Source: Nitrospirota bacterium (GTDB lineage Bacteria; Nitrospirota; Nitrospiria; Nitrospirales; Nitrospiraceae). Taken from it: a DNA stretch of 60,013 bases. Where the stretch lies: assembly GCA_005877775.1 (NCBI GenBank), contig VBOJ01000050.1, positions 1 through 60,013 on the forward strand. The letters are read 5' to 3'. Shown one piece after another: positions 11,619 through 53,263 of this stretch; the first letter of the stretch is position 1; each line of letters begins with the position of its first letter. A program made the position numbers and the translations under genes. The notes beneath the pieces are model-generated. The model worked only from the letters and a program-made list of their open reading frames with translations, did no database searches and was not told the origin of the DNA.

Positions 11619-12889
11619 CCGCCGCAGCGACTCCCCTCACGCCAGAGACCGAGGCCAAAGTCCAGGAGATCGGCGAAACGGACGTTCTGGTCGGCATTCC
11701 CAGTTATAACAACACCGACACGATCGGCCATGTCGTCCGCGCAGTCAGCGCCGGACTGGCCAAATACTTTGCCCGATCGCGAGTGGTCTTGGTCAATTCA
11801 GACGGTGGCTCGTCTGATGGCACGCCCGAAGCTGTCTCCCGAGCGGTAGTGGACCTCGGAACCCTGCTGATCAGTGAGCAGCAGAGTCCGCTGCACAAGA
11901 TCATCACGCCCTACCATGGAATCCCCGGGAAGGGCAGCGCGTTTCGGACCATCTTCGAGATCGCGAGGCGGCTGAAGGCAAAGGCCTGCGCGGTCGTGGA
12001 CTCAGATCTCCGAAGCATCACGCCGGAGTGGATCGAGTTGTTGGCCCGGCCAGTGTTGGAGGAAGGCTACGACTATGTCGCACCCTACTATCTCCGTCAC
12101 AAATACGACGGAACCATTACCAACAGCATCGTCTATCCCCTGACCCGCGCCCTCTACGGCCAGCGCATTCGCCAGCCGATTGGCGGTGATTTTGGCTTCT
12201 CCGGGAGGCTGGCGGAACATTATCTGGAGAAACATGTCTGGGAATCTGATGTGGCCCGCTTCGGCATTGATATCTGGATGACGACAGAGGCGATCGCCAA
12301 CGGAGCGAGGGTCTGTCAGAGCTTTTTAGGGGCGAAAATCCATAACCCCAAGGATCCAACTGCCGATCTCTCGGCTATGCTGGTTCAGGTCATGGGAGCT
12401 GTCTTCGCTTTGATGGAAGAGCATCAACCAGTCTGGGGGGGAGTGAAGGGTTCGAATCCCGTCAAGCTGTTTGGGTTCCAGTACGATGTCGGCGTCGAGC
12501 CGGTCAACGTCAACGTGGATCGCATGATCAGCAGTTTCCGGCAGGGCCTCGCTGATCTAGAGCCAATCTGGAGGGAGATGCTGGCGCCGGGTACGGTCGA
12601 AGGGCTCCTTCCCTTAAAGGACTGTCCACTCCAGGCCTTTCGCATTCCCGACGGGCTCTGGGCTCGACTCGTTTATGATGTCGCTGTGTCCTATCACCAT
12701 CGTGTCATGCCACGCGAGCACCTGCTCAAAGCGTTCACACCGCTCTATCTGGGGCGCACAGCGACGTTTGTGCTGGAGACACAAGGACTCACATCTTCCG
12801 AAGCTGAAGGGCGGATTGAGTCACTCTGTCAAGCCTTCGAGGACCGCAAGCCGTATCTGGTAGAACGATGGGGCGCAGGACGCGAGTAG
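11615..12889 (+). CDS. GT-A fold (family 2-like) glycosyltransferase, specificity unknown
   Basis: 424 aa. VLVGIPSYNNTDTIGHVV...VNSDGGSSDGT and VVDSDL motifs. ATGA overlap with the upstream gene. Confidence 0.6.
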   Translation: MTAAATPLTPETEAKVQEIGETDVLVGIPSYNNTDTIGHVVRAVSAGLAKYFARSRVVLVNSDGGSSDGTPEAVSRAVVDLGTLLISEQQSPLHKIITPYHGIPGKGSAFRTIFEIARRLKAKACAVVDSDLRSITPEWIELLARPVLEEGYDYVAPYYLRHKYDGTITNSIVYPLTRALYGQRIRQPIGGDFGFSGRLAEHYLEKHVWESDVARFGIDIWMTTEAIANGARVCQSFLGAKIHNPKDPTADLSAMLVQVMGAVFALMEEHQPVWGGVKGSNPVKLFGFQYDVGVEPVNVNVDRMISSFRQGLADLEPIWREMLAPGTVEGLLPLKDCPLQAFRIPDGLWARLVYDVAVSYHHRVMPREHLLKAFTPLYLGRTATFVLETQGLTSSEAEGRIESLCQAFEDRKPYLVERWGAGRE

Positions 12890-12973
12890 CGTATAGCCAA
12901 TAGCGAACAGCTCTGAACCCGAAGTTGTGCAGGCCCTGCTGGCTCTTCGCTATCAGCTCTCGAGGAGGACATC

Positions 12974-28864: not shown

Positions 28865-30364
28865 TCAGCGAATCATGCCCGGCTGCTGATTAGGTGGCTG
28901 ATCGAGCGGGGGCGGAACGGGGTCTGAAATGCGGGGCGACGGAGGCTGGGCAACGGGGGGAGTTGATGCCGGTTGATCACGAAGCGACGGCGTTGGGGGC
29001 AGGGCCCCGGCGTCAGGCTGTCTAGGAGCCTGCTCTTTCGACGGCTGAGTCGGACTGTGGGGGAGCAGGAGAATCTCGACGCGCCGATTCGCCTGACGGC
29101 CTTCTTCTGTCTCGTTACTGGCTGCCGGTCTCGTATCTCCGTACCCGACCGCCGACAGGCTCGCCGAGTCGAGGCCTCCCTCCTCGATGAGATACCGTAC
29201 CACGCTTGTCGCGCGAGCCTTGGACAGCTCCCAGTTTGACGGAAACTTCTCCTTCAAACTCGGACCAATCGGGACATTGTCCGCATGCCCCTCGACCCTA
29301 AAGTGCTTGTCGGGCACACTCTTGAGAATCTCGCTCACTTGTTTAAGGATCCTGAGTCCTTCCGGCTTGAAGGTGGCCTCCCCGGATTCGAACTCGACGT
29401 GATCCACCAGCTCATCCAGATTAATCCTCAGGCGATCCCCGATCTGCTGAATCGCGATCGGGGCGCGACCGGAACCAGGCTCTTCCGGCAGCCTGGCCAC
29501 GCGCTCCAGCTCCTCCCTCTGACCTTTGAGCACTTCTTCTTCCTGCCGGACCGTTTCTTTGGTTGCTTCTTTGAAAATAAACCGGTCTCCGCGCAGGAGC
29601 GGTGCGGTCGAGCGCACAATGAACGCCGTCGCGGTGGTGTCCTCCAAGGCAACAATCTTCAGCTCGCCGATGACACGGTTGGGCAGGCCAGCTCCGACCC
29701 GGAAGACTTCGAGTCGATCTCCAAGCTGCAGCCCCTCCTCGCGACCCCAGTCTAGATAGACCACATTCCTTTGGCCGATCAGAAATCGTGGCTGTTGAAC
29801 TTCCACAATCATGCCTGGATTGTCGGATAGAGTCCGGCCTGAAGGCGCAGAATCCTCGTGAGACGGCGGCTCTAACCGGATGACTCGGTCTCCCGGAGAA
29901 ATTGCGCCATAGGCCCGGACAACGCGGACAGTTGTTAGGTCTGGCTCGACCTTGACCACCTTGACGATCCCAAGGTTTTGAAAGAGGTCGCCGAGATGGT
30001 TTCCGTACTGAGGGTGGAACACCTCTCGGATACGCCTGTAGATGATATAGAGATCGCCCGGGGACACTTCCTCTGGCTGACTCATCCGCAGATACAAGAG
30101 ATCGGCCATCCCGATCAGCATCCTGTTGCCGGTCGTCTGGTTGTCGCCTGTGACTTGGCCGACGACCCCGTCAACCGGCACACTCATGCGGATGAAACCA
30201 GAGAAAAAGGCGATGGCGCCATCCCCCCTCGTCAGACCTTGCAGATATGCATCTGCAGCGAAGGCGCCGTGCGAGACGAGCAAGACCCAAGCCAAGGACG
30301 GGAGGAAGACTGTGGTTAGCCTGTTCAGCATAGAAAATATGCAGGGCACTAACGAGGCAACCAT
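28865..30364 (-). CDS. OmpA-family protein with an N-terminal beta-rich domain, a coiled coil and a Pro-rich tail
   Basis: The C-terminal OmpA domain is closely similar to that of 4721..5734 (NWELS.ARAT.VVRYLIE.GG, NRR.EI). An alternative start lies at 30331. Confidence 0.8.
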   Translation of the reverse strand: MVASLVPCIFSMLNRLTTVFLPSLAWVLLVSHGAFAADAYLQGLTRGDGAIAFFSGFIRMSVPVDGVVGQVTGDNQTTGNRMLIGMADLLYLRMSQPEEVSPGDLYIIYRRIREVFHPQYGNHLGDLFQNLGIVKVVKVEPDLTTVRVVRAYGAISPGDRVIRLEPPSHEDSAPSGRTLSDNPGMIVEVQQPRFLIGQRNVVYLDWGREEGLQLGDRLEVFRVGAGLPNRVIGELKIVALEDTTATAFIVRSTAPLLRGDRFIFKEATKETVRQEEEVLKGQREELERVARLPEEPGSGRAPIAIQQIGDRLRINLDELVDHVEFESGEATFKPEGLRILKQVSEILKSVPDKHFRVEGHADNVPIGPSLKEKFPSNWELSKARATSVVRYLIEEGGLDSASLSAVGYGDTRPAASNETEEGRQANRRVEILLLPHSPTQPSKEQAPRQPDAGALPPTPSLRDQPASTPPVAQPPSPRISDPVPPPLDQPPNQQPGMIR

Positions 30365-30410
30365 AGCAAATCACGCTGAGAAGTCAAGCAAGTTTGAAGA
30401 ATGTGCGAGT

Positions 30411-30440
30411 TTGACAGGCTGTTCTAGCGGGTGATAAGGT
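30411..30440 (+). promoter_or_regulatory. candidate promoter in the long nuoA upstream region
   Basis: TTGACA (30411-30416), an 18-nt spacer ending in TGA (an extended -10-like TG), then TAAGGT (30435-30440). Confidence 0.3.
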
Positions 30441-30872
30441 GAGAGACCACCAGGAGATTCTACTGTGAATGTAACGAAGCGAGCCCCTGGGCAGGCTTCT
30501 GCATCAAGGGAGAGCCCAAAACGCCGAATCGAGACACAAATCCATCGGCGGAAGAAAGCGAAAGCGGTCTTCCCGCTCGAAGCCGAATGGGATGCGCGGT
30601 CGAACCGTCTTCCGGTCGGCCTCAGGATGGCCTCGGACAAGATGAAGAACACGCCCACCTCCCACTAAACGCTGCTTCGTCTCACATCTTGGCCGCTAGA
30701 CCAGAGTCAGGTCAAGCAATCAGAAAACAAGGTATTTTTGATATCGAAAAGAAGGGGGCTAGGGCTTTCGGCTGGAAAGGGTTAGGTCCTTTGTTCGCTT
30801 GATTTACCAAACACATAGGGGCTAAGATGCCAAATCTTCTTGGGAAGTCAAGGTGTTGAGAGCGAGGGTTTT

Positions 30873-31256
30873 GTGAGCGGTGCTGAATTGCTCCTTGACT
30901 ATTTGTCCCGGTATTTCCCGGTTCTATTGTTCATCCTGATTGCGATGGGGTTCGGCGTGGTGACGTTGCTTGTCAGTTATCTGGTGCACCCTAAGTTCCC
31001 GGAGACGGAGAAGCTTAGCCCCTACGAATGCGGCAGCGAACCGTTCTCCGACGCGCGCATGCCGTTTCCCGTTCGGTATTACATCTTTGCCATGTTGTTT
31101 GTCATCTTCGACATCGAGGTCATCTTCCTTTATCCGTGGGCCGTGGTCTTCGATAAGATCGGCCTCATCGGACTGGTCGAGATGTTGGTCTTCATCGGGC
31201 TGTTTCTGGTGGCCTACGTCTACGCTTGGAAGAAGGGGGCGCTGGAGTGGGATTAA
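30873..31256 (+). CDS. nuoA: NADH-quinone oxidoreductase subunit A
   Basis: PYECG motif and 3 TM helices. GTG 30873 was chosen because it carries the same GGGTTTT-start context as nuoB, nuoC and nuoD. The ORF could start at TTG 30840. Confidence 0.8.
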   Translation: MSGAELLLDYLSRYFPVLLFILIAMGFGVVTLLVSYLVHPKFPETEKLSPYECGSEPFSDARMPFPVRYYIFAMLFVIFDIEVIFLYPWAVVFDKIGLIGLVEMLVFIGLFLVAYVYAWKKGALEWD

Positions 31257-31261
31257 ACGGA

Positions 31262-31413
31262 GAAGAGCCGATGGCATATGGCCGGAGGACAAGAGCTGAT
31301 GGCGTATGGCTAATGGCGAATGACCGGAGAGTTCCACTTCTTGCCATAAGCTATAAGCTCTTCCGCCCAGGCTATCGGCCGTTAGCCATCAGCTATAAGC
31401 TCTTGGGGTTTTT
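31262..31413. repeat. heptad-phased nested inverted repeat (AGAGCYG ATGGCNN / GCCATMA GCTATAA GCTCT)
   Basis: The whole nuoA-nuoB spacer reads in one 7-nt register, and its left and right halves are imperfect reverse complements. Confidence 0.85.
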
Positions 31414-31932
31414 ATGGGACTGATACAGATCGGACGGCATGAAAAGGACGGGGAACTGGATATCATCACCACGTCGCTGGAAAAGGTCGTCAACTGGGCG
31501 AGGAAAGGCTCCTTGTGGCCTATGACGTTCGGCTTGGCCTGCTGCGCCATTGAAATGATCGCGGCGGTCTCGTCGCGCTATGACATGGACCGGTACGGGG
31601 CCGGCGTGTTCAGGGCCTCCCCTCGCCAATCAGACTTGATGATTGTAGCCGGCACGGTCTGCCGGCGGATGGCTCCCGTCATCAGGAAGATCTACGATCA
31701 GATGCCCGAGCCCAAGTACGTCATCGCCATGGGCTCGTGCGCGACGTCCGGTAACATCTACGACAGCTACAGCGTGGTGCAGGGAGTGGACCGCTTCGTG
31801 CCAGTGGACATCTACGTGCCGGGGTGCCCCCCAACCCCCGAGGCGCTGTTCGACGGCATCTTGAAGTTGCAAGAGCGGATCATGCAGAAGCGGGTGTTCG
31901 TCAAACAGCCTGAGCAAGTGAAAAACGCGTGA
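31414..31932 (+). CDS. nuoB: NADH-quinone oxidoreductase subunit B
   Basis: [14 protein letters not shown] and CPP cluster N2 motifs. Confidence 0.95.
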
Positions 31933-31959
31933 AGGCCTAGTTCGGAAGTTTTGAATTGA

Positions 31960-31999
31960 GCTCACAACTCAGCACTCATCACTTAGCACTGGTTTTTGA
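31960..31999. repeat. heptad repeat ACTCAGC ACTCATC ACTTAGC ACTGGTT
   Basis: Four to five 7-nt units immediately upstream of the nuoC ATG. Confidence 0.7.
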
Positions 32000-32497
32000 A
32001 TGCATCCAATAGCCCAACGCCTCCAGCGGGAATTCCCTGGGGGTTTCGTCAAGTCTGTTGAATGGCGCGGCGATTTGGCCGTGACCGTGCGTCGCGAGAC
32101 AATGCACGACGTGGCTGGGTTTCTCCATGATGATCCCGACATGGATTTCGATTACATCGTGCACGTCAGTTCCGTGGATTGGCCTGATGACGAGGAGCGG
32201 TTTGAGGTCGTCTATGAATTCTATTCGATCCGCAAACGCCATCGCATCAGGCTCAAGGCCCGTGTGCCCGAATCGGATTGCGAAGTCACCTCGCTGACGG
32301 ACCTCTGGAAAGGCGCCGATTTCATGGAGCGCGAGGTCTATGACATGATGGGCATCCGGTTCCGCAATCATCCAGACCTGCGCCGCATTCTCATGCCGGA
32401 TGACTATGATGAGGGCTACCCATTGAGAAAGGATTTTCCCCTGCGGGGCAAGGGGTGGCGGGACACGTTTGAGTTCCTGAACGAAACGAGGCCGTAA
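32000..32497 (+). CDS. nuoC: NADH-quinone oxidoreductase subunit C
   Basis: 165 aa with ERE.YDM.GI.F..HPDLRRIL, typical of NuoC. Confidence 0.9.
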   Translation: MHPIAQRLQREFPGGFVKSVEWRGDLAVTVRRETMHDVAGFLHDDPDMDFDYIVHVSSVDWPDDEERFEVVYEFYSIRKRHRIRLKARVPESDCEVTSLTDLWKGADFMEREVYDMMGIRFRNHPDLRRILMPDDYDEGYPLRKDFPLRGKGWRDTFEFLNETRP

Positions 32498-32500
32498 TGC

Positions 32501-32595
32501 CTCATCAGTGATGAGTCCTGAGGAATGAGTATTTGGGACGCATTGGGCGTTTCTCAACACAGATAACGCATCACGCATAACGAATCACGGGTTTT
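32501..32595. repeat. heptad repeat element (AGTGATG AGTCCTG AGGAATG ... ATAACGC ATCACGC ATAACGA ATCACGG)
   Basis: The nuoC-nuoD spacer stays in a single 7-nt register from 32507 to 32590. Confidence 0.75.
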
Positions 32596-33870
32596 ATGCA
32601 GCCGATCGAAGACCAGCGCAGCAACGCCTATGAAGACCAGCGGAGCACCGTTTATAAGGTGGACCCTGCTCATCCGGAGAGTTCGACCCTGCCGACCCTT
32701 CGGACTGAGGAGTTGCTCCTCAACATGGGCCCGCAGCACCCCAGCACTCACGGCGTCTTGAAAGTAATTCTGGAACTGGAAGGAGAGCGGATTGTCAAGG
32801 CCACGCCGGTCATGGGATTTCTGCATCGAGGCGTAGAGAAGTTGGCGGAAGATGGCACCTACCATCAGTTCATCCCCCACACGGACCGGCTGGATTATGT
32901 CTGCGCGATGTACAACAACTTCGCCTATTGTCGCGCGGTCGAGAAGCTGATGAACATTACAGTGCCGGAGCGGGCTGAGTACCTGCGCACCATTGTGGCG
33001 GAGGTCCAGCGGATCATCGGCCATCAGTTCTGGTTGGGGACGCAAGCGCTGGATATCGGCGCGATGACCGTGTTCTTCTACGCGTTCCGGGACCGTGAGA
33101 TCCTGCTGGACTGGTTCGACGAGTTGTGCGGTGCGCGCTTGACCACGAGCTGGTACCGGATCGGCGGCGTGGAACGGGATTTGACGCCGTCACTGACAGA
33201 GAAGCTCCGACGGTTCCTTGACTACTTTCCGCCCAAGATTGATGAGTACGTGGTCTTTCTCGAAAAGAACCGGATCTGGCTTGCCCGCACCAAGGGGGTA
33301 GCGGTGATCTCAGCCGAAGACGCGGTCAGCTTCGGTCTTAGCGGTCCCACGCTACGTGGCTCCGGCGTGGATTACGATCTGCGGAAGTCTGAGGCCTACG
33401 CGGCCTATCCCCGTTGCGAATTCAGCGTGCCCGTAGGCAAGAACGGCGACACCTACGACCGATACTGGATCCGAGTCCAGGAGATGCGAGAGAGTGTGAA
33501 GATTATCACGCAGTGCCTGGACCAGATGCCGGCAGAGGGATCGATCATGGCCGATGTACCGAGCGTGACCCTTCCTCCGAAGGACCGCGTGTTCACGAAC
33601 TTGGACTCCATGATTCAGCAGTTCAAACTCTTCTCGCAGGGATTCGACGCGCCGCGCGGCGAGATTTACTGCGGCACGGAAGCCCATAAAGGCGAACTGG
33701 GCTTTTACATCGTCAGTGCCGGGGGCGGCAAGCCATACCGCCTGAAGATTCGAGCTCCCTCGTTCATTCACATGGGGGCGTTTGACCACATGTCGCGGGG
33801 GTATATGATCGCGGACGCCGTGACGATCTTCGGGACCTACGATATTGTCATGGGCGAATGCGACCGGTGA
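32596..33870 (+). CDS. nuoD: NADH-quinone oxidoreductase subunit D
   Basis: LNMGPQHPSTHGVLK and HRG.EKL motifs. The N-terminal extension contains a 24-nt tandem duplication. Confidence 0.92.
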   Translation: MQPIEDQRSNAYEDQRSTVYKVDPAHPESSTLPTLRTEELLLNMGPQHPSTHGVLKVILELEGERIVKATPVMGFLHRGVEKLAEDGTYHQFIPHTDRLDYVCAMYNNFAYCRAVEKLMNITVPERAEYLRTIVAEVQRIIGHQFWLGTQALDIGAMTVFFYAFRDREILLDWFDELCGARLTTSWYRIGGVERDLTPSLTEKLRRFLDYFPPKIDEYVVFLEKNRIWLARTKGVAVISAEDAVSFGLSGPTLRGSGVDYDLRKSEAYAAYPRCEFSVPVGKNGDTYDRYWIRVQEMRESVKIITQCLDQMPAEGSIMADVPSVTLPPKDRVFTNLDSMIQQFKLFSQGFDAPRGEIYCGTEAHKGELGFYIVSAGGGKPYRLKIRAPSFIHMGAFDHMSRGYMIADAVTIFGTYDIVMGECDR

Positions 33871-33874
33871 AATG

Positions 33875-33958
33875 GTGAGGCGTGAGGAGTAAGGCGTGAG
33901 GGGTGTGGGGAGCCCGTTGGGATTTCGCCTAACTCCTCACTCCTTACGCCTAACGGAG
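33875..33958. repeat. heptad inverted repeat (GTGAGGC GTGAGGA GTAAGGC GTGAGGG GTGTGGG ... TTCGCCT AACTCCT CACTCCT TACGCCT)
   Basis: nuoD-nuoG spacer. The arms are about 80% complementary and 49 nt (7x7) apart, in the same register. Confidence 0.85.
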
Positions 33959-33966
33959 AAAAAAGA

Positions 33967-36675
33967 ATGGCTCTGAAACCAGCGACGAACCCTGACGTCG
34001 AAGCGGCGACGATCGAGCTGTCCCTTGACGGCCGGATCGTGACGGCTAAAGACGGGGTCTCGCTCTACGACGTGATTGCCAGCACGGGCAACATCGTGCC
34101 GGCCATGTGTTACCACTATACGTTTGACCCCTTCGGCTCCTGCGGCGTCTGTCTAGTCATGGTAGAGGGGAAAAAGGCGCCGGTTCGCTCCTGCACCGCG
34201 AAAGCCACGGCCGGCATGGTGGTGCGCACCGAGGGGGACGACCTGTTCCAGGCCAGAAAAAAGGCGGTCGAGAAACATCTGTCCGTCCACCCGCTGGATT
34301 GTCCGGTCTGCGACGCAGACGGCCATTGCGAGTTGCAGGACATGGCCTTCCAGCACCAGGTGACCACCCTGGCCAACGCCAAGCAAAAGCTGATTCCGGA
34401 GGACACCCGGAGCCTCGTCCTGGATTTCAACATGAACCGCTGCATCGCCTGTGGCGAGTGCATCAACGTATGCAAAGACGTGCTGATGATTGATGCCCTT
34501 CAATTCATGAAGAAGGACGGCTTCACCCAGGTCGTGGCCAAGGGCGATGTCGCGCTTTCCTGTGAGTTTTGCGGCGACTGCTTGGCGGTCTGCCCGGTCG
34601 GTGCGATCACGAACAAGTATTCCAAGTATCTGTACAAGCCTTGGCAGCTCAAAAAGACCACGACAACCTGCAACTACTGCGGCGACGGCTGCCAGATGTA
34701 CATCGAAACCAAGGACAACGAAGTGGTCCGTGTTACCTCTCCCCTGTCCTGGAAGAACAAGTGGGGGGACCGAGCCGAGACGGCAAAGGGGCATGGCGGC
34801 ATCTGTGTGCGAGGGCGATTCGGGTTCCAATACATCGACAGCAAGGCGCGCCTCCGTCAACCGCTGGTGCGCCGTGACGGGAATCTCGTCGAGACCCCTT
34901 GGTTGGAGACGATCCACACTGTGGTCGAGCGGCTGGCCGCCATCAAGGCCCAACACGGCCCCGAGGCAATTGGCGGGCTGATCACGGCCCGGTGCAGCAA
35001 CGAGGAACTCTACCTGTTCCAGAAGTTCATGCGCGCGGCGATCGGCACCAATCAGCTTGACAGCAGCGCCCGTTACGGACACCTAAATTTCGTCCACGCG
35101 GTCCAGCATGCGTTGGGCATCGGCCGGATGATGAATGATTGGGAGGACATCACCAAGGCTAAGACTATCCTCCTTGTCGGAACCAATATTACCGAAACCA
35201 ACCCGCTAACCGCCGTTCGAGTGAAAGAGGCGATCCGCGTCTATAAGTCGCAGGTGATCGTTGTGGACTCCGCCCAGACCAACATCGCCACGCTTGCATC
35301 GCATCCAATGCTGGTGGCGCCGGGGACCGAGGGGCTGTTCATCCAGGGTCTGGTGAAATCGGTGCTTGAGCAGGACCTCGTGGATGAAGAAGCCACGAGT
35401 AAGCACCCGCAAGCGTTCACTGCGCTCAAGCAGGCGGCCTCTAGGGTCCCACTTGACGTGATCGCTGCGCACACCGGTGTGCCGGTCGAGCAGATTCATC
35501 AGGCCGCTGCCATCTTCGCGGAGGCGCCACGTGCGATCATCCTATGCGGCGAGGGGATTGTGCGCCGGACCGGTGGATACAGGCATGTTCTGAACCTGGT
35601 GGACCTGGCCTGGATCACCGGGAAGCTGGGGCGGCCTGGCTGCGGCGTGAATACAATCACCGAAGAACCCAACGAGCAGGGCGCCGCGGACATGGGCGCG
35701 CTGCCGGAATGTTTCCCAGGCCAGGCTCGGTTCGACGATGCGGGAGCGCGCGAGAAGTTTGAGAAGGCCTGGGGTGCTGCGCTGCCAGCGGCGGGCAGTG
35801 GGGCGTCTCTCATGGAGATGCTCAAGCGTTGCCGGAGCGGGCACATCAAGGCGCTGTACGTGATCGGGGAGAACCCGCTCGCCACGCTTCCCTCGTCGGT
35901 CGGAGTCCGAGCCGCTCTGGAGAACCTTGAGCTGTTGATCTGCCAGGATCCGTTTCTGACCGAGACCGCCCAACTGGCCCACATCGTCCTGCCGGCTTGC
36001 ACCTATGCCGAAAAGGACGGCACGTTCACGAACCTCGAGGGGAAGGTGCTGCGTATCCGGCAGACCATGGATCCCATCGGGGAGAGTCTGCCTGACTGGC
36101 ACATCATGACCGCCATCGCCAACGGACTCGGCTATGAGCTGCCGTACGAATCTGCTCAGGACATCCAGAACGAGATCATGAAACTCCTGCCCGGCTACTA
36201 CAACCTGGGACAGCCTCGGAAGATCTCGCCGAAACCGGAGTCGTATCTCGCGAATGGCTACGCCGCGGAGGTGAGGAATCGGTATCGCAGCGATCTCAAG
36301 CGGAAGCCGGCGAGCGGGGGAACCGCTCGGCGTTCGTTCACTCTGCTGATGGGTCAGGTGCTCTACCACTCCGGCAAGCTCTCCACGCAGGCCTCCGGAT
36401 TGATCAAAATCTTGCCAAACACCGGTCGGCTCCACATGAACGCGAGAGATCTCGAGCAGATGGGACTGGGGGAAGGCGCGCGGGTCCGGGTCACCTCGCC
36501 GAAGGGATCGCTGGAGCTTGGCGTGCAGGCTGACCTGACGGTCCTGCCCGGCTCGTGCTTCTTCCCGGAGCACTTCAACGAGCCTCAGGTGAAGGACTTG
36601 ATGCCGGTCGAGGTGGATGCCGACACCGGCGTGCCCTATTTCAAACTGGCCGAGGTGACGATCGAAAAGCTGTAA
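33967..36675 (+). CDS. nuoG: NADH-quinone oxidoreductase subunit G-like Fe-S / molybdopterin-fold protein
   Basis: 902 aa. N-terminal 2Fe-2S Cys pattern, HPLDCPVCDADGHCELQ, 4Fe-4S motifs, and a molybdopterin oxidoreductase-like body. Confidence 0.88.
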   Translation: MALKPATNPDVEAATIELSLDGRIVTAKDGVSLYDVIASTGNIVPAMCYHYTFDPFGSCGVCLVMVEGKKAPVRSCTAKATAGMVVRTEGDDLFQARKKAVEKHLSVHPLDCPVCDADGHCELQDMAFQHQVTTLANAKQKLIPEDTRSLVLDFNMNRCIACGECINVCKDVLMIDALQFMKKDGFTQVVAKGDVALSCEFCGDCLAVCPVGAITNKYSKYLYKPWQLKKTTTTCNYCGDGCQMYIETKDNEVVRVTSPLSWKNKWGDRAETAKGHGGICVRGRFGFQYIDSKARLRQPLVRRDGNLVETPWLETIHTVVERLAAIKAQHGPEAIGGLITARCSNEELYLFQKFMRAAIGTNQLDSSARYGHLNFVHAVQHALGIGRMMNDWEDITKAKTILLVGTNITETNPLTAVRVKEAIRVYKSQVIVVDSAQTNIATLASHPMLVAPGTEGLFIQGLVKSVLEQDLVDEEATSKHPQAFTALKQAASRVPLDVIAAHTGVPVEQIHQAAAIFAEAPRAIILCGEGIVRRTGGYRHVLNLVDLAWITGKLGRPGCGVNTITEEPNEQGAADMGALPECFPGQARFDDAGAREKFEKAWGAALPAAGSGASLMEMLKRCRSGHIKALYVIGENPLATLPSSVGVRAALENLELLICQDPFLTETAQLAHIVLPACTYAEKDGTFTNLEGKVLRIRQTMDPIGESLPDWHIMTAIANGLGYELPYESAQDIQNEIMKLLPGYYNLGQPRKISPKPESYLANGYAAEVRNRYRSDLKRKPASGGTARRSFTLLMGQVLYHSGKLSTQASGLIKILPNTGRLHMNARDLEQMGLGEGARVRVTSPKGSLELGVQADLTVLPGSCFFPEHFNEPQVKDLMPVEVDADTGVPYFKLAEVTIEKL

Positions 36676-36688
36676 CACCCCCACCCAT

Positions 36689-36714
36689 CCCTCCCCCTGT
36701 GTGAAGGGGGAGGG
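36689..36714 (+). other. perfect 10-bp C/G-tract hairpin in the nuoG-nuoI spacer
   Basis: CCCTCCCCCT-gtgtga-AGGGGGAGGG with no U-tract after it. Confidence 0.8.
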
Positions 36715-36743
36715 ACAGGGAGGGACCTGAGCGGGAGAGCCTC

Positions 36744-37334
36744 ATGAGCGTGAGCGTGTTGGCAAAACAACTGTTGGACGCGGTGATGTTCCGCGAGATC
36801 TGGAACGCGATGAAGGTCACCTTCACACACATGTTCCATCGCCCCATCACTTTTCAATATCCGCGAGAAGAGCGGACGATTCCTGACACCCACCGAGGGG
36901 CCCTCGCGTTGCTGCGTTACGATGACGGGGCTGAGCGGTGCGTGGGTTGCGATCTGTGCGAGGTCGCCTGCCCCTCCCACTGCATCAAAGTCGTCAGCAC
37001 CGAAGATGAGTCCCTTCCCCTGCGACGGTACGCGAGCGAGTTCTATATCGACATAACCAAGTGCGTGTTCTGCGGCTATTGTGTGGAGGCATGCCCTGTG
37101 AATGCGCTGGCGATGACGAAGATGTACGAATACTCAACCCATGACAAACGTACGCTCCTGTTCGATAAGAAACGGCTCTACGAGATCGGCGAACGATTCA
37201 TCGAGGATGCCAAGAAATACCTGTACGCGCACAATCAGGAGAAAAACGATCAGATGTTCCACGACTACCGCTACTTCTTCCCCCAGTCGGTTCTCAAACC
37301 AACACAACCGTTGCCACCCAAACACCTGACCTGA
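36744..37334 (+). CDS. nuoI: NADH-quinone oxidoreductase subunit I
   Basis: Two ferredoxin motifs, CVGCDLCEVACP and CVFCGYCVEACP. Confidence 0.92.
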   Translation: MSVSVLAKQLLDAVMFREIWNAMKVTFTHMFHRPITFQYPREERTIPDTHRGALALLRYDDGAERCVGCDLCEVACPSHCIKVVSTEDESLPLRRYASEFYIDITKCVFCGYCVEACPVNALAMTKMYEYSTHDKRTLLFDKKRLYEIGERFIEDAKKYLYAHNQEKNDQMFHDYRYFFPQSVLKPTQPLPPKHLT

Positions 37335-37346
37335 GCCGTACCCCCT

Positions 37347-37874
37347 ATGGTCCTTGCCTTCTTCGCTTACTGCTCTCTGGTCAGCATTGTGGCCGGGTTC
37401 CTCACGGTTGCCCTGAAAAACCCGGTGCACTGCGGAATTGCGCTCCTGACTCTCCTGCTGCATGTGGCCGGCCTGTTCGTCCTCTTGAACGCGGAATTCC
37501 TGGCCATGGTCCAGATCATCGTCTATGCGGGTGCGATCCTGGTCCTGTACCTGTTCGTGTTGATGCTGCTCAATTTGAAGACCGACGAACGGTACTTGCA
37601 TTCAAGGTTCGCGTTGATTCTGTTCGCAGCCGTGGCAATTTGCGGCGAGCTCCTCCTCTTGATCGTGGGATCTCCTTTCGGCGGGTTGAAGGGTGACGCG
37701 CCCACGGAGGTGGTCCTCAAGGACGGAGCCAGTTATGCGATCGGCATCAAGATGTTCAGCGACTACCTGCTACAGTTCGAGATCATCGGCGTCTTCCTGA
37801 CGGGCGCAATCGTTGGGGCGATTGTGTTGGCCAAGACACCGACGTCCGCCGACATTGATAACCGTGAGGGGTAA
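37347..37874 (+). CDS. nuoJ: NADH-quinone oxidoreductase subunit J
   Basis: 175 aa, 5 TM helices, and VQIIVYAGAILVLYLFV typical of NuoJ. Confidence 0.9.
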   Translation: MVLAFFAYCSLVSIVAGFLTVALKNPVHCGIALLTLLLHVAGLFVLLNAEFLAMVQIIVYAGAILVLYLFVLMLLNLKTDERYLHSRFALILFAAVAICGELLLLIVGSPFGGLKGDAPTEVVLKDGASYAIGIKMFSDYLLQFEIIGVFLTGAIVGAIVLAKTPTSADIDNREG

Positions 37875-37947
37875 GGCGTTAGGCATGTGGCGCGAAGGCG
37901 GACAGGGTGTCGTGACCCCTTACGCCTCACCCCTTACGCCTTACGAG
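37864..37947. repeat. heptad inverted repeat (GTGAGGG GTAAGGC GTTAGGC ... TTACGCC TCACCCC TTACGCC TTACGAG)
   Basis: nuoJ-nuoK spacer. The left arm contains the nuoJ TAA stop. Confidence 0.85.
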
Positions 37948-37952
37948 TCGTT

Positions 37953-38255
37953 ATGGTCCCGTTAAGCGCATACGTGGCACTCAGCGCGACCCTGTTCGCG
38001 ACCGGGCTGATCGGCGTGCTGATCCGCCGGAACTTCATCATCGTCTTGATGGCGGTAGAGATCATGCTGAATGCGGCCAATATCAATCTGGTGGCCTTTT
38101 CCCACTACTTGGAATCCATGACCGGTCAGATCGTGGCACTCTTCGTCATCGCCATCGCGGGCGGGGAGGCGGCCGTCGGGTTGGCCATTATCATCGTAGT
38201 GTTCCGCGGGAAAATCTCAACGAACGTCGACGAGATCAACCTCTTGAAGTGGTAA
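37953..38255 (+). CDS. nuoK: NADH-quinone oxidoreductase subunit K
   Basis: 100 aa starting at MVPLSAYV, with the MAVEIMLNAANINLVAF motif. The ORF extends to 37887 only by reading through the repeat. Confidence 0.9.
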   Translation: MVPLSAYVALSATLFATGLIGVLIRRNFIIVLMAVEIMLNAANINLVAFSHYLESMTGQIVALFVIAIAGGEAAVGLAIIIVVFRGKISTNVDEINLLKW

Positions 38256-38256
38256 C

Positions 38257-40251: not shown

Positions 40252-40274
40252 CCGGAGAATGGAGTGAGCGCGTC

Positions 40275-41834: not shown

Positions 41835-41840
41835 CATTCT

Positions 41841-43556
41841 ATGATCGACTCGACCTTGCTGATTATTTTGTTCGCGCCCTTCGCGGGTGCCACCACGTTA
41901 CTGTTCGTGTCGAATAAACAGGCGCTATTGGTCCGCGTGATTGCCGCAGCCGCGGCCGGCATGTCGCTGCTCACCTCCTTCTACATGTTCTTCGCATACG
42001 ATCCTGTGGAAGGTGGATTTCAGTTCGTGAAGCGGTTTGAGTGGTCGAAGGAGTTGGGCATCGCCTTCTACCTCGGCGTGGACGGCATCGGGGCACCGCT
42101 GGTACTGGCGTCTTCCATTCTATTGTTTGCCGGGATCTTCATCTCCTGGCACATCAAGGACCGCACCAAGGAGTTCTACATTTTCTTGCTGATCCTGGCT
42201 GCCGCCACCATGGGCGTGTTCATGTCCCTGGACCTGTTCTTCCTCTATTTCTTTTATGAGATGTCGGTCATCCCGATGTACCTCCTGCTGGGGGTCTGGG
42301 GCAGTCATACCAAGGGCTACCTGGACATGTCCGATCCCGAAGGCCTGAAAAAGCGCGATTCGGTCGGGTTCATCTTCAACTTTGCCGCCAACAGTAAGGA
42401 ATACGCCGCGATGAAGTTGACGCTGTTTCTGTCCGTCGGAGCGGTCGTCGCGCTCATGGGCATCCTGTTGATCTATAAGTTCTCGGGCCTCAACACGTTC
42501 GACATCCTGGTCCTGCGCGAGCAGGCCAAGTTCTCCGGCTCGCTGGCCACGATCATTTGGCTCCTGATCTTCTTTGGGTTCGCCTCGATCGCGCCGATCT
42601 GGCCTCTGCACTCCTGGTCGCCGGTCGGCCATGCCGCGGCGCCGGCCGCCACCAGCATGTTGCACGCGGGCGTCTTGATGAAGCTGGGACATTTTTCGAT
42701 CATCCGCATTGCCTTCGAGATTCTGCCCGAGACCACCCACGAGCTGATGCCGATTGCGGCCGTGCTCTGCATCTTCAATATATTTTACGGCGGATTTGTG
42801 GCCTATTACGCACGGGACACCAAGTATGTGATCGGGTACTCCAGCTCCAGCCATATGGGGTACGTCTTCCTCGGCATGGCGGCGCTGGACTACATCAGCC
42901 TGACCGGCGCGGTGCTCTACATGTTCGCGCATGCCTTGGCCACCGGCATGCTCTTCGCGATGGCCGGGTGGATCTATGACCAGACACACATGCGCGACAT
43001 TCCGTCGCTCGGAGGACTGGTCAACCGGATGCCGTTCGTCGCAGCCTGCTTCATGGTGGCCTGTATGGCCTCGATCGGCATGCCCGGCACGGTGAACTTC
43101 ATCGCCGAAGTCATGATCATCGTCGGAAGCTGGCACAAATATCCGTTCCAGGTTCTAGTGGCCGTGGCGGGGATCGCCCTCACGATGGCGTACCTGTTCA
43201 GAATGATGCGAGGGGTGTTCTACGGACCGATGGAGCACAAGTACAGCCATGCGCACGATGCGGTGGCGCCGGTGGATCGGCTCCCGCTGTTGCTCATGAT
43301 CGCCTGCAGCATCGCGTTTGGCATCTTCCCTGGACACTTCTACGACGTCATCCGGTCCGGGGTAGACCCTCTCGTGACCCGCATCACGGCGGTTGTGCCG
43401 CTGGCGGAGCAAACCCGTGAGGAGTTAGGGGTAAGGAGTGAGGCGAAGGTCTCCGGAGATCTGAGCCGGTCGCTGCTGCCCTCCGATAACCCCTCACCCC
43501 TCACGCCGACTCGACTGAGCTCGTCGCAGGCTCACGCCTCACGAGGATCGGAATGA
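41841..43556 (+). CDS. second NuoM-type antiporter-like subunit (571 aa)
   Basis: VIGYSSSSHMGYVFLG and FFYEMSVIPMYLLLG motifs. The last ~44 codons translate a heptad repeat element. Confidence 0.85.
   Translation: MIDSTLLIILFAPFAGATTLLFVSNKQALLVRVIAAAAAGMSLLTSFYMFFAYDPVEGGFQFVKRFEWSKELGIAFYLGVDGIGAPLVLASSILLFAGIFISWHIKDRTKEFYIFLLILAAATMGVFMSLDLFFLYFFYEMSVIPMYLLLGVWGSHTKGYLDMSDPEGLKKRDSVGFIFNFAANSKEYAAMKLTLFLSVGAVVALMGILLIYKFSGLNTFDILVLREQAKFSGSLATIIWLLIFFGFASIAPIWPLHSWSPVGHAAAPAATSMLHAGVLMKLGHFSIIRIAFEILPETTHELMPIAAVLCIFNIFYGGFVAYYARDTKYVIGYSSSSHMGYVFLGMAALDYISLTGAVLYMFAHALATGMLFAMAGWIYDQTHMRDIPSLGGLVNRMPFVAACFMVACMASIGMPGTVNFIAEVMIIVGSWHKYPFQVLVAVAGIALTMAYLFRMMRGVFYGPMEHKYSHAHDAVAPVDRLPLLLMIACSIAFGIFPGHFYDVIRSGVDPLVTRITAVVPLAEQTREELGVRSEAKVSGDLSRSLLPSDNPSPLTPTRLSSSQAHASRGSE
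43417..43543. repeat. heptad inverted repeat (GTGAGGA GTTAGGG GTAAGGA GTGAGGC ... TAACCCC TCACCCC TCACGCC) inside the 3' end of the second nuoM
   Basis: Same family and same 7-nt register (arms 70 nt apart) as the nuoD-G and nuoJ-K spacers. Confidence 0.8.
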
Positions 43557-52090: not shown

Positions 52091-52207
52091 AGAGCTGATA
52101 GCTTATAGCGAATAGCCGATGGCCAGAGTAGCCGGCAGAGCTTATGGCTCACAGCAAGAAGTCGGAGTCTCCTGCCATAAGCCATTAGCCATACGCCATT
52201 AGCTCTT
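52091..52207. repeat. heptad inverted repeat (AGAGCTG ATAGCTT ATAGCGA ATAGCCG ATGGCCA ... CCATAAG CCATTAG CCATACG CCATTAG CTCT)
   Basis: Lies between convergent genes. 52181-52207 is the reverse complement of 31291-31317 with 26 of 27 identities. Confidence 0.85.
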
Positions 52208-52789: not shown

Positions 52790-52904
52790 GGAATCGGCTA
52801 TTCCTTGATCTTTGTCCGAATCCAGGGTACGGTTTGTGCCATGTGCTCAACGACCGGCTCGCTCTTCTGGTCGAGCCAGCCACTTCCAACCGAAAGGAGC
52901 CTGT

Positions 52905-53222
52905 ATGATTGGACGGGTCGTCGTCGCGGTCATTCTGATCATGACATTTGCAGCCCCGGTGTTCGCAGGTCCCAAATCCCCTGGCGTTGATCGCCGGGAA
53001 CATAAACAGAAGCAGCGCATCAAGCAAGGGATCAAAAGCGGAGCACTGACGAAGGAGGAGGGCAGAGCCCTGACAGCCGAACAGAAAGCGATCCGTGCCA
53101 AGGAGCGCGAGATGAAGTCAGACGGATCACTGACGAGAGAGGAACGCAAAGAACTGCATCAGGACCTCAACGAAGCCAGCAAGAACATTGCGGAGCAGAA
53201 GCACGACGCGGAAACGCGGTAG
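52905..53222 (+). CDS. small secreted Lys/Glu/Arg-rich protein
   Basis: AAAGGAG RBS, signal peptide MIGRVVVAVILIMTFAAPVFA, and a charged helical remainder. Confidence 0.55.
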   Translation: MIGRVVVAVILIMTFAAPVFAGPKSPGVDRREHKQKQRIKQGIKSGALTKEEGRALTAEQKAIRAKEREMKSDGSLTREERKELHQDLNEASKNIAEQKHDAETR

Positions 53223-53263
53223 GCGAAAGGGGTGAGGCGTTAGGCGAAACCCCGGAAGAGAGG

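What the first reader, a model, noticed from the sequence alone, without database searches (positions are those of the whole stretch)
33875..33958. Heptads carry a T-N-A triplet at a fixed position, so stop codons step through the reading frames
Each unit has T-N-A at the same offset. On left arms N is mostly G or A, giving + strand stops:
- TGA 33876, TGA 33883, TAA 33890, TGA 33897, in frames 0, 1, 2, 0.
- TGA 32512, 32519, 32526.
- TAG 52099, 52106, 52113.

On right arms N is mostly C or T, giving - strand stops: TTA/TCA/TTA/TTA at 37920, 37927, 34 and 41 (that is 37934 and 37941), which read TAA/TGA/TAA/TAA on the - strand.

Because 7 is not a multiple of 3, three successive units close all three frames. 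Real stop codons of flanking genes sit inside heptads: nuoJ TAA 37872-37874 in gTAAggc, pyrE TAA as the complement of 52199-52201, and the 52905 gene TAG 53220-53222 in gTAGgcg.

Hypothesis: the element acts as a frame-independent translational stop plus a hairpin, insulating neighbouring cistrons.
Basis: partly seen in the sequence, partly recalled or inferred. Interest (0 to 1): 0.75.

Follow-up and report, generated by a model that had tools for sequence, protein, structure and literature searches.

The report
Seven-base repeat hairpins between Nitrospira genes
The stretch is one of many fast-changing hairpin elements built from 7-base repeats that sit between the respiratory complex I genes of a soil Nitrospira; they are rich in TGA, so stop codons do fall in all three frames, but the data suggest this is a side property and not their purpose.

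Summary
The coordinates and triplets are all correct. Window 33875-33953 is an imperfect palindrome between nuoD and a nuoG-like gene: five GTNAGGN heptads, a 16-nt loop and four complementary heptads. It is one of about ten such elements in the window.

Some of the argument is arithmetic. 7 is not a multiple of 3, and rc(T-N-A) is T-N'-A, so minus-strand stops in right arms simply mirror the left arms.

Across 80 related Nitrospira loci, sense stops in 5' arms exceed shuffles (256 vs 185). The excess is TGA only (184 vs 67). TAA is neutral and TAG is depleted. With dinucleotides controlled, the TGA excess falls to 1.4-fold.

Several results argue against selection for stops:
- The middle base of the triplet is the most variable heptad position, with no stop-preserving bias.
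- Only 25 of 106 5' arms close all three frames.
- One same-family copy lies inside the second nuoM ORF and is read through.
- Orthologous junctions carry other units or no element at all.

Arrays do supply the real stop codon of five window genes.

Best reading: slippage-built heptameric repeat hairpins, like STRR and REP elements, that act as mRNA stem-loops next to stop codons. The TGA bias and the G-rich-arm-first polarity remain unexplained.

The parts
33868..33870 (+). TGA stop of nuoD (ORF 32596-33870). It lies 4 nt before the first heptad and is not itself in the array.
   Evidence: PF00346 Complex1_49kDa.
33875..33909 (+). E6 5' arm: GTGAGGC GTGAGGA GTAAGGC GTGAGGG GTGTGGG. T-R-A at 33876, 33883, 33890 and 33897 falls in frames 0, 1, 2, 0.
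33910..33925 (+). E6 loop. Its sequence is unique and is not shared with the other elements.
33926..33953 (+). E6 3' arm: CGCCTAA CTCCTCA CTCCTTA CGCCTAA. It is followed by GGAG (33955-33958, Shine-Dalgarno-like) and the ATG at 33967 of the 902-aa NuoG-like gene.
   Evidence: (MFE -44.5 kcal/mol, z -4.56).
37864..37945 (+). E7, same unit family, between nuoJ and nuoK. The 5' arm (37864-37891) is GTGAGGG GTAAGGC GTTAGGC ATGTGGC. It starts inside nuoJ, and its second unit supplies the nuoJ stop TAA at 37872-37874. The 3' arm (37916-37945) is CCCCTTA CGCCTCA CCCCTTA CGCCTTA.
   Evidence: z -3.1; same arrangement in eight lineages.
43417..43507 (+). E8, same unit family, inside the 3' end of the second nuoM ORF (41841-43556). 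The heptads are GTGAGGA GTTAGGG GTAAGGA GTGAGGC ... CCCCTCA CCCCTCA. The only unit whose T-N-A is in frame reads TTA, so the ORF runs through to the ATGA overlap with nuoN.
53218..53249 (+). E10, a half element: GGTAGGC GAAAGGG GTGAGGC GTTAGGC. TAG 53220-53222 is the stop of ORF 52812-53222. A separate strong hairpin with a T run follows at 53262-53297.
31266..31406 (+). E3, between nuoA and nuoB. Units are ATGGCNN/GCNNATG with AAGAGCT...AGCTCTT ends. It looks like one element nested in the loop of another. A 53-nt block differs between assemblies that are otherwise near-identical.
   Evidence: z -2.8.
31956..31994 (+). E4, between nuoB and nuoC. It is a single C-rich arm (ACTCAGC ACTCATC ACTTAGC) whose TGA triplets lie on the antisense strand. 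A relative with 93-97% flank identity has an unrelated GTGAGGG hairpin here.
32505..32590 (+). E5, between nuoC and nuoD. It is a degenerate heptad pair (GTGATGA GTCCTGA GGAATGA / ATAACGC ATCACGC ATAACGA ATCACGG) and does not fold significantly.
   Evidence: z -0.2.
3606..3715 (.). E1, between two minus-strand genes. Units are TGAGTGY. TCA 3709-3711 in the right arm is the TGA stop of the HAD hydrolase gene 3709-4404.
   Evidence: (z -3.9).
12883..12959 (+). E2, with units NNNTAGC (GAGTAGC GTATAGC CAATAGC GAACAGC). TAG 12887-12889 in the first unit is the stop of the glycosyltransferase gene 11615-12889. The hairpin is weak.
52092..52205 (.). E9, between convergent genes. The left arm is GCTGATA GCTTATA GCGAATA GCCGATG and the right arm is GCCATAA GCCATTA GCCATAC GCCATTA, with AAGAGCT/AGCTCTT ends. 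The complement of 52199-52201 is the stop of the phosphoribosyltransferase gene 52199-52789.
   Evidence: (z -4.0).

Best explanation
The stretch is one copy of a dispersed class of imperfect palindromes. Each arm is a short tandem array of 7-nt units, so these are heptameric simple-sequence repeats arranged as inverted pairs. They fill most gene junctions of the complex I (nuo) operon of a soil Nitrospira.

Shown:
- The periodicity, the inverted architecture and the stable sense-strand RNA hairpin.
- The stem base lies 0-3 nt after the upstream stop codon in most copies.
- The G-rich arm comes first.
- The elements turn over rapidly, by replacement or loss, between close relatives.

Inferred:
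- The arrays are made and remodelled by replication slippage. Arms expand independently and units homogenise.
- Hairpin-templated strand switching or insertion also contributes.
- The elements are tolerated inside an operon because they fold out of the way.
- In the mRNA they behave like REP elements. They form a structured spacer that can block 3' exonucleases, hinder Rho loading and, being next to the stop codon, stall or slow terminating ribosomes. This would loosen the translational coupling that relatives achieve by overlapping genes.

The T-N-A pattern is a real sequence property. TGA is favoured in the G-rich arm. Combined with a 7-nt period, it necessarily places stops in successive frames. 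Arrays that overlap a gene end therefore supply that gene's stop. The stops as such are a by-product and not the selected function.
For: Architecture and periodicity.

Hairpins: z scores of -2.6 to -4.6 for six window elements.

RNA level: sense RNA folds 2.3 kcal/mol better than antisense in 124 nuo spacers, 78 vs 45, Wilcoxon P 1e-4. There are 415 vs 334 G.U pairs.

Position: the stem starts 0-3 nt after the stop in 65 of 106.

Polarity: the G-rich arm is 5' in 64 and 3' in 12. In other phyla the count is 22 vs 0.

Turnover:
- Orthologous junctions carry different units, or none, or the genes overlap.
- The nuoB-nuoC element is replaced between genomes that are 93-97% identical in the flanks.
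- There is a 53-nt strain polymorphism in E3.
- In L129 the 3' arm has four perfect units while its 5' arm has 2-3 degenerate ones.
- There are no compensatory changes; substitutions break pairs.

Stops are not the constrained feature.

Precedents:
- Heptameric repeats are over-represented in bacteria and sometimes occur in inverted pairs (PMC4692102).
- REPs within 15 nt of a stop codon stall ribosomes and lower upstream expression (as summarised in PMC12306157).
Against: - TGA is still 1.4-fold above a dinucleotide model and is the top-ranked triplet among unit families, both here and in unrelated phyla. Something favours it that this account does not explain.
- In Nitrospira GTNAGGN arrays N is a purine in 77 of 94 units, while the other variable position is mostly C. 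The purine is therefore position-specific.
- No expression, RNA-end or ribosome data were available, so every functional step is inferred.
- Slippage in steps of 7 nt between strains was not directly seen. The one strain polymorphism is 53 nt.
Confidence: 0.55

Rival explanations
1. The element is selected as an all-frame translational stop pad followed by a hairpin. Ribosomes arriving in any frame terminate before the next cistron, and neighbouring genes are translationally insulated.
For: - E6 closes frames 0, 1 and 2 within 21 nt.
- Sense stops in 5' arms are 256 vs 185 expected. Arms closing all three frames number 25 vs 9.0 expected.
- Stops sit in the arm met first by ribosomes on either strand.
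- Natural stops lie in register with the arrays: offsets -7, +6/+7, +13/+14 and +20 are enriched.
- Elements occur where relatives have overlapping, coupled genes.
- The same property was noted for the TAACTGA repeats of Beggiatoaceae (PMC4679880).
Against: - Only TGA is enriched. TAA is neutral and TAG depleted, despite real stop usage of 211/185/131.
- The middle base is the most variable position, and TGA variants are T36 / A39 / C35.
- 76% of 5' arms leave at least one frame open.
- E4 carries its TGAs on the antisense strand.
- E8 is translated through.
- TGA excess is the same whether or not the stem abuts the stop.
- There is no sense-strand bias in other phyla, 15 vs 12.
- The elements are dispensable in relatives.
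Confidence: 0.15
2. The elements are non-autonomous mobile DNA of the MITE or REPIN type. They would be copied to new junctions by a transposase encoded elsewhere, and the heptads would be part of the recognition structure.
For: - Several families are dispersed over many junctions in one genome, and the dominant family differs between genomes. L139 uses GGACTGA at three junctions.
- One family shares AAGAGCT...AGCTCTT ends at three window sites.
- E3 looks like a nested insertion.
- An element is replaced between close relatives.
Against: - Copies of a family differ in unit order, unit number and loop sequence, so they are not copies of one master sequence.
- No target-site duplications were seen.
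- The ten flanking ORFs scanned against Pfam include no transposase or RAYT gene.
- Arms of unequal length point to local slippage.
Confidence: 0.15
3. The arrays are binding sites for an oligomeric RNA- or single-strand-binding protein that reads one triplet (UGA) every 7 nt. HutP reads XAG every 7 nt in this way. The complementary arm would sequester or release the site.
For: - TGA is the only feature common to otherwise unrelated units.
- It is the top-ranked triplet here and in other phyla.
- HutP binds three 7-nt repeats per face with sequence-independent spacers, at two sites flanking a linker in a terminator hairpin (PMC2425495).
- Cold-shock proteins were proposed for heptamers in PMC4679880.
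Against: - Within an array the four spacer positions are repeated as faithfully as the triplet. Mismatch rates are 0.20-0.25 and 0.15 for the spacer positions, against 0.245, 0.313 and 0.141 for the triplet. This is what whole-unit duplication predicts, not triplet-only constraint.
- No candidate protein was identified.
Confidence: 0.08
4. The hairpins are intrinsic transcription terminators or attenuators inside and between operons.
For: Some copies are followed by T runs (E3 GGGGTTTTTATG, E4 GGTTTTTGA, E5 GGGTTTTATG). E9 lies between convergent genes.
Against: - The loops are 16-45 nt long and the stems are long and mismatched.
- E6, E7 and E8 have no T run.
- The consensus scan found no terminator-like site at any element.
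- Six copies lie inside one operon whose distal genes must be expressed.
Confidence: 0.05

Closest known systems
Heptameric long simple-sequence repeats of bacteria: cyanobacterial STRR, and the Xanthomonas GGGAATC and Nostoc GGGGATT repeats (PMC4692102, which cites a 2007 study as first reporting the excess)
   Same: Tandem 7-nt units, intergenic, in many loci per genome. Length and sequence vary between close relatives, and some occur as inverted pairs able to form stem-loops. GTNAGG arrays of the window's type occur in Nostocales and many other phyla.
   Different: In this Nitrospira group the hairpin arrangement is common: 106 of 124 long nuo spacers fold into arms of at least 18 nt. It is not an occasional variant. 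Many unit sequences coexist in one genome, the arrays are short (3-5 units), and they sit directly against stop codons inside an operon.
TAACTGA direct repeats of marine Beggiatoaceae (PMC4679880)
   Same: These are heptamers containing TGA and TAA. [quoted passage not shown] They suggested a translational role.
   Different: That case is one fixed unit, almost always as direct repeats, oriented towards a downstream start codon. Here the units are diverse, the arrays are inverted pairs, and no sense-strand bias was seen in the wider GTNAGG set.
REP/BIME (REPIN) elements of enterobacteria and pseudomonads
   Same: Dispersed intergenic imperfect palindromes, often between genes of one operon, that form mRNA stem-loops. 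REPs within 15 nt of a stop codon stall terminating ribosomes (as summarised in PMC12306157).
   Different: REPs share a conserved consensus with a GTAG or CGTC head and are tied to RAYT transposases. They have no 7-nt internal periodicity. Here there is no shared consensus beyond TGA, and no RAYT was seen.
Geobacter metallireducens 'class 3 predicted global regulator binding sites' (PMC2700814)
   Same: Five tandem heptads of MTYCTGA, drawn by the authors as strand-switching alignments. The reverse complement is the GTCAGGA-type unit found by the GTNAGG scan.
   Different: They were annotated as DNA-binding sites without a test, and N is C on the G-rich strand.
HutP binding sites in the Bacillus hut terminator (PMC2425495)
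   Same: A triplet is repeated every 7 nt, three times, in two sets flanking a linker inside a hairpin.
   Different: HutP spacers are not conserved between repeats and the two sets are direct. Here whole heptads are repeated and the sets are inverted.

Membership tests
Heptameric simple-sequence repeats (STRR-like) | Head-to-tail copies of a 7-nt unit, three or more copies | tested here: met
   TRF reports period 7 with 4.4 and 3.9 copies at 33875-33905 and 33928-33954. Lag-7 excess is shown.
Heptameric simple-sequence repeats (STRR-like) | Dispersed in many, mainly intergenic, loci of one genome | tested here: met
   About ten elements in 60 kb, all at gene junctions except E8, which lies in an ORF tail.
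Heptameric simple-sequence repeats (STRR-like) | Copy number or sequence varies between close relatives, as expected from slippage | tested here: inconclusive
   Arms are unequal, the units at orthologous sites differ, and there is a 53-nt strain difference. No clean +/-7-nt allele was seen. Seven assemblies are identical at E6 and E7.
REP/REPIN | Conserved consensus sequence shared by the copies, with a GTAG or CGTC head | tested here: not met
   67 distinct consensus units were found. Anchored on T[GA]A, the other four positions show no consensus.
REP/REPIN | Associated RAYT (IS200-like) transposase in the genome | not testable with these tools
   Only 60 kb of this genome is held. No transposase is among the ten flanking ORFs scanned.
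MITE | Terminal inverted repeats with target-site duplication and near-identical copies | tested here: inconclusive
   AAGAGCT/AGCTCTT ends are shared by E2, E3 and E9. No target-site duplication was noticed, and the interiors differ.
Intrinsic terminator | G+C-rich stem, loop of 3-8 nt, followed by a T run | tested here: not met
   No site at any element in 30000-46000. The E6 loop is 16 nt and is followed by GGAGAAAAAAG.
Any Rfam RNA family | Match at the gathering score | tested here: not met
   Only two tRNA-Leu genes matched in the whole window.
   25 of 106 5' arms close all three frames. The middle base is the most variable position and shows no stop-preserving bias. TAA and TAG are not enriched.

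The most novel reading that the evidence does not exclude
UGA repeated every 7 nt in the first-transcribed arm of a stop-codon-adjacent hairpin is a selected signal used across bacterial phyla. It could be a termination pad working with the hairpin to set ribosome release and re-initiation, and hence subunit stoichiometry in operons such as nuo. Alternatively it could be the binding array of an as yet unknown oligomeric RNA-binding protein. Three results could be read as consistent with this: TGA/TCA is the top-ranked triplet in heptad units both in Nitrospira and in unrelated phyla; the purine at N is position-specific in Nitrospira; and the G-rich arm is strictly first.
Probability: 0.12. 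Interest if true: 0.7.

Novelty: new variant of a known kind. Interest (0 to 1): 0.4.

Why it matters
Heptameric repeats have been known to be over-represented in bacteria since 2007 (as cited in PMC4692102), but PMC4692102 found no detailed study of them as of 2015.

This operon gives a clean comparative system. The same gene junctions are seen in dozens of related genomes, either empty, overlapping, or filled with hairpins made of different 7-nt units. Two regularities emerge that have no accepted explanation. TGA is the preferred triplet, and the G-rich arm always comes first.

If these regularities reflect translation termination, Rho avoidance or a binding protein, they would reveal a widespread layer of control, or of tolerance, of operon expression.

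If they are only by-products of slippage and dinucleotide bias, the finding is ordinary. It is then a warning that stop codons stepping through frames follow automatically from any 7-nt repeat that contains a T-R-A.

Tried and rejected
- **Rfam at gathering score:** nothing but two tRNAs.
- **Consensus terminator and promoter scan:** no site at any element.
- **Genome-contig scan with GTNAGGN x4:** It gave distribution across phyla but no further copies from this organism.
- **Apparent difference of L003 around nuoM:** this is a run of N in a scaffold, not biology.
- **Clustering consensus units at two or fewer mismatches to get independent families:** all 67 units fall into one cluster because 7-mer space is small. 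Independent sets of about 10 units gave 6.8 observed vs 5.3 expected, which is too few to test.
- **Covariation in six orthologous nuoD-nuoG spacers of the TGAATGN family:** 26 pairs and no compensatory change.
- **Tolerance-filter idea:** the idea was that arrays survive only if they end the upstream ORF quickly. It predicts more TGA when the stem abuts the stop. The excess is the same in both classes, 2.83x vs 2.64x, so I dropped it as the main explanation.
- **Shine-Dalgarno mimicry:** GAGG and AAGG occur in GTRAGGN units. I considered this as the reason for the purine at N, but other unit families with TGA (TGAATGN, GTGAAAC, TGATGGC) are not Shine-Dalgarno-like.
- **Elhai et al. on small dispersed repeats in Nostoc:** the paper could not be found in the searchable library.
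Full report
**What is at the coordinates**

Window 33875-33953 lies between the TGA stop of nuoD (33868-33870) and the ATG at 33967 of a 902-aa NuoG-like gene. nuoD is ORF 32596-33870 and matches PF00346.

The stretch has three parts:
- five heptads, GTGAGGC GTGAGGA GTAAGGC GTGAGGG GTGTGGG;
- a 16-nt loop;
- four complementary heptads, CGCCTAA CTCCTCA CTCCTTA CGCCTAA.

GGAG follows, 8 nt before the ATG. Tandem Repeats Finder reports period 7 on both arms. The arms form a 22-nt, 86% complementary inverted repeat. The RNA folds at -44.5 kcal/mol with z -4.6.

Six other soil assemblies carry this element and the nuoJ-nuoK element without a single difference. The NuoD protein falls in a 90% cluster whose named members are Nitrospira sp. 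or Nitrospiraceae.

**It is one of many**

Lag-7 self-similarity picks out 20 runs in the window, against 2-4 for lags 4, 5, 8, 10 and 11. Seventeen of these runs belong to about ten elements:
- E1, 3606-3715
- E2, 12883-12959
- E3, 31266-31406
- E4, 31956-31994
- E5, 32505-32590
- E6, the finding
- E7, 37864-37945
- E8, 43417-43507
- E9, 52092-52205
- E10, 53218-53249

Six of them lie at junctions of the nuo operon. The units fall into at least three families:
- GTNAGGN;
- ATGGCNN/ATAGCNN, with AAGAGCT...AGCTCTT ends;
- TGAGTGY-like.

E1, E3, E6, E7, E8 and E9 fold significantly better than shuffles (z -2.6 to -4.6). E2, E4 and E5 do not. E10 is a half array followed by a separate strong hairpin. 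No Rfam family matches. No element looks like a canonical terminator.

**What is arithmetic and what is observation**

A 7-nt period shifts the frame by one at each unit. Any unit that contains a stop triplet therefore closes all three frames in three copies.

The reverse complement of T-N-A is T-N'-A. Every T-N-A is thus a stop on exactly one strand. In an inverted repeat, the minus-strand stops of the right arm are simply the mirror of the plus-strand stops of the left arm, so they are not a second line of evidence.

The TAG triplets at 52099, 52106 and 52113 are T-A-G at a different offset from the T-N-A of that unit. The right arm of E6 itself reads TAA, TCA, TTA, TAA on the plus strand.

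I permuted the seven columns of each array, which keeps both periodicity and composition. No single array then stands out. For the E6 5' arm, 36% of permutations also close all three frames. The pooled count is higher than expected, at 81 stops on both strands against 50.2 +/- 7.4. However, the arrays share families and the arms mirror each other.

**A larger, related sample**

A metagenome scan with NuoD returned 80 loci with 89-100% protein identity, about 1.1 Mb in total. These hold 137 lag-7 arrays, against 4-12 for the non-codon lags.

I mapped the nuo genes by tblastn to obtain the junction lengths. In many relatives nuoA/B, nuoC/D, nuoJ/K and nuoM2/N overlap (-10, -10 to -19, -4, -4), and nuoD/G is 9-35 nt. 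In the window's closer relatives the same junctions are 60-160 nt long and hold heptad hairpins.

At one and the same junction the unit differs from lineage to lineage. Examples are GTGAGGC, TGAATGN, CGTTAAA, GAGTGCT, GGTGATT, GTGAAAC, GTCAATC and GGACTGA. One genome (L139) uses GGACTGA at three junctions where the window uses three different families.

Between the window and L128 the flanks are 93-97% identical in DNA, yet the nuoB-nuoC element is unrelated. E3 differs by a 53-nt block between assemblies with identical flanks, and looks like a nested second element. In L129 the nuoJ-nuoK 3' arm has four perfect CGCCTCA units while the 5' arm has two or three degenerate ones.

Six orthologous spacers of one family show 26 conserved pairs and no compensatory change. 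Their substitutions break pairs.

The elements are therefore dispensable and short-lived. They are remodelled by local expansion and by replacement.

**Is the triplet more often a stop than composition predicts?**

Yes, but only for TGA.
- Of 67 distinct consensus units, 54 carry a stop on one strand or the other, against 39.9 +/- 3.35 for permutations of the same letters.
- Ranked by triplet, TGA/TCA is first (34 vs 17.8, z 4.6). GGC/GCC (z 4.6) and AGC/GCT (z 3.7) follow. TAA/TTA is neutral (15 vs 13.9) and TAG/CTA is low (11 vs 15.5).
- In 106 nuo-spacer hairpins, sense stops in the 5' arm number 256 against 185 +/- 9.9. These split as TGA 184 vs 66.7, TAA 42 vs 50.8 and TAG 30 vs 67.1.
- Real nuo genes end in TGA/TAA/TAG 211/185/131 times.
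- TA is strongly avoided in the arms (observed/expected 0.56) and TG is favoured (1.33). Against a first-order Markov expectation TGA is 184 vs 131, or 1.4-fold.
- Heptad arrays of other unit types in unrelated phyla show the same ranking: TGA/TCA 41 vs 27.7 (z 3.0), with TAA and TAG neutral.

**Is the stop the constrained feature?**

The evidence says no.
- I re-indexed each array on its consensus stop. The mismatch rates are then 0.245 (T), 0.313 (middle base, the highest of all seven) and 0.141 (A), against 0.15-0.25 for the other four positions.
- Variants of the G in TGA are T 36, A 39 and C 35. Variants of the middle A in TAA are G 27, T 22 and C 23. There is no bias towards keeping a stop.
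- Only 25 of 106 5' arms close all three sense frames, although shuffles give 9.0.
- E4 is a lone C-rich arm inside the operon, with its TGAs on the antisense strand.
- E8 is the strongest counter-example. It is a GTNAGGN hairpin inside the tail of the second nuoM ORF. In the window, L129 and L200, and in a related form in L194, the unit whose T-N-A falls in frame reads TTA or TCA. The out-of-frame units keep TGA or TAA. In L165 the 5' arm is degenerate but stays open in frame. In all five the ORF runs on to the ATGA overlap with nuoN.
- In the genome-wide scan of other phyla, GTNAGG arrays have a majority N of C 40, G 37, T 33 and A 10 loci. For unpaired arrays between co-directional genes, the stop-bearing strand is the sense strand 15 times and the antisense strand 12 times, using crude ORF calls.

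Arrays do deliver working stops.
- In the window the natural stop lies in a heptad for five genes: 3709-4404 (minus strand), 11615-12889, nuoJ, 52199-52789 (minus strand) and 52812-53222.
- The nuoJ arrangement, cGTGAGGnGTRAGGn with the second unit as the stop, recurs in eight lineages.
- Relative to the natural stop, stop triplets are enriched at offsets -7 (26 of 124), +6/+7 (22 and 16), +13/+14 and +20. The background is about 3-8.
- In the Nitrospira GTNAGGN arrays N is G 51, A 26, T 12 and C 5, while the other variable position is C 36, G 16, A 9 and T 0. The purine at N is therefore position-specific and not just a C-poor arm.
- The TGA excess is the same whether the stem starts within 3 nt of the stop (2.83x) or further away (2.64x). 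A simple filter of the kind "tolerated only if it ends the upstream ORF" does not explain it.

**Other regularities**

- The G-rich arm is 5' and the C-rich arm 3' in 64 hairpins, against 12 with the reverse order. In the other phyla the inverted partner of a GTNAGG array is always downstream, 22 vs 0.
- The stem base starts 0-3 nt after the natural stop in 65 of 106.
- Sense RNA folds better than antisense (mean 2.3 kcal/mol, 78 vs 45, P 1e-4) and has more G.U pairs (415 vs 334). This points to the transcript as the level at which the structure matters. G+U-rich strands tend to fold better in any case, so the support is modest.

**Best explanation and rivals**

I read these as heptameric simple-sequence repeats arranged as inverted pairs. 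They are built and reshaped by slippage and by hairpin-templated copying or insertion. They are tolerated inside an operon because they fold out, and in the mRNA they act like REP elements.

REPs within 15 nt of a stop codon are reported to stall terminating ribosomes and lower upstream expression (summarised in PMC12306157). The geometry here fits that. Having the C-rich arm last would keep it from ever being single-stranded, and hence from loading Rho. This step is inference only.

The rivals are:
- MITE- or REPIN-like mobility (0.15);
- a protein that reads UGA every 7 nt, as HutP reads XAG (PMC2425495). This is weakened because spacer positions are repeated as faithfully as the triplet (0.08);
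- intrinsic terminators (0.05).

**Relation to what is known**

- Over-representation of heptameric repeats in bacteria, their intergenic location, their variability between close relatives and their occasional inverted pairs are described for Xanthomonas and Nostoc (PMC4692102).
- The point that a stop-containing heptamer closes all three frames, and can overlap the upstream stop, was made for TAACTGA in Beggiatoaceae (PMC4679880).
- Geobacter metallireducens has five-heptad MTYCTGA sites, which are the reverse complement of the GTCAGGA-type unit (PMC2700814).
- GTNAGG x4 arrays occur in Nostocales, Nitrospira, Acidobacteriota, Planctomycetota, Bacteroidota, Proteobacteria and others.

Four things appear not to have been described:
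- the hairpin form dominating in a Nitrospira operon;
- the diversity of units at orthologous junctions;
- the strict arm polarity;
- TGA as the one shared triplet.

I could not find a paper on such elements in Nitrospira.

**Verdict**

Its statistical excess is a TGA bias and not a stop-codon bias.

It is not supported as the selected function.

The element class is a new variant of a known kind. Interest is moderate. The open questions are why TGA is favoured and why the G-rich arm comes first.

Noticed in passing
window 36679-36724 (nuoG-nuoI spacer): A hairpin without heptads, CCCCACCCATCCCTCCCCCT / AGGGGGAGGGACAGGGAGGG, has its C-rich arm first. This is the opposite polarity to the heptad elements. 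The G-rich, Shine-Dalgarno-like arm ends about 20 nt before the nuoI ATG at 36744.
   Followed up: partly
window 31266-31406 vs L001:8693-8830 and L004:1955-2092: The nuoA-nuoB element differs by a 53-nt block between assemblies whose flanking genes are identical. The longer form looks like a second AAGAGCT...AGCTCTT element nested in the loop of the first.
   Followed up: partly
window 31933-31999 vs L128:8653-8739: The flanks are 93-97% identical in DNA, but the nuoB-nuoC spacer holds unrelated elements. The window has a lone ACTCAGC-type arm and L128 has a full GTGAGGG hairpin. The element has been replaced rather than drifting gradually.
   Followed up: yes
window 30945-45049: The nuo cluster reads A, B, C, D, a 902-aa NuoG-like protein (Fer2_4, NADH-G and molybdopterin domains), I, J, K, L, M, a second M (571 aa), N. 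No nuoE, nuoF or nuoH lies in the cluster.
   Followed up: no
window 43400-43556 and the same region of L129, L165, L194, L200: The last 40 or so residues of the second NuoM are poorly conserved. In several lineages they are encoded by a heptad hairpin (R-E-E-L-G-V-R-S-E-A ... N-P-S-P-L-T-P). A repeat element has become coding sequence while the ATGA overlap with nuoN is kept.
   Followed up: yes
window 53262-53297: A strong G+C-rich hairpin (GGGCGGCCGCTTCAGACGAGGCAGCCGCCC) followed by TTCGTGTTTTTC lies directly after the half array E10. It is a likely true terminator of ORF 52812-53222.
   Followed up: no
L007-L126 (genome-contig hits): Heptad arrays of different units often lie side by side in one spacer. 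Examples are L009, L024, L109 and L126. Among arrays that are not of the GTNAGG type, TGA/TCA is again the most over-represented triplet (41 vs 27.7 units).
   Followed up: partly
L114:3700-4403 (Syntrophomonadaceae MAG): A GTGAGGN/GTAAGGN heptad array precedes each of two tandem copies of a roughly 170-nt coding-looking segment (…CATCATCGACTGGAAGC…). The array seems to travel with a duplicated gene fragment.
   Followed up: no
window 4526-4610 and 56825-56911: Two tRNA-Leu genes (anticodons GAG and CAG). The inverted repeat I10 is simply the acceptor stem of the second one.
   Followed up: no
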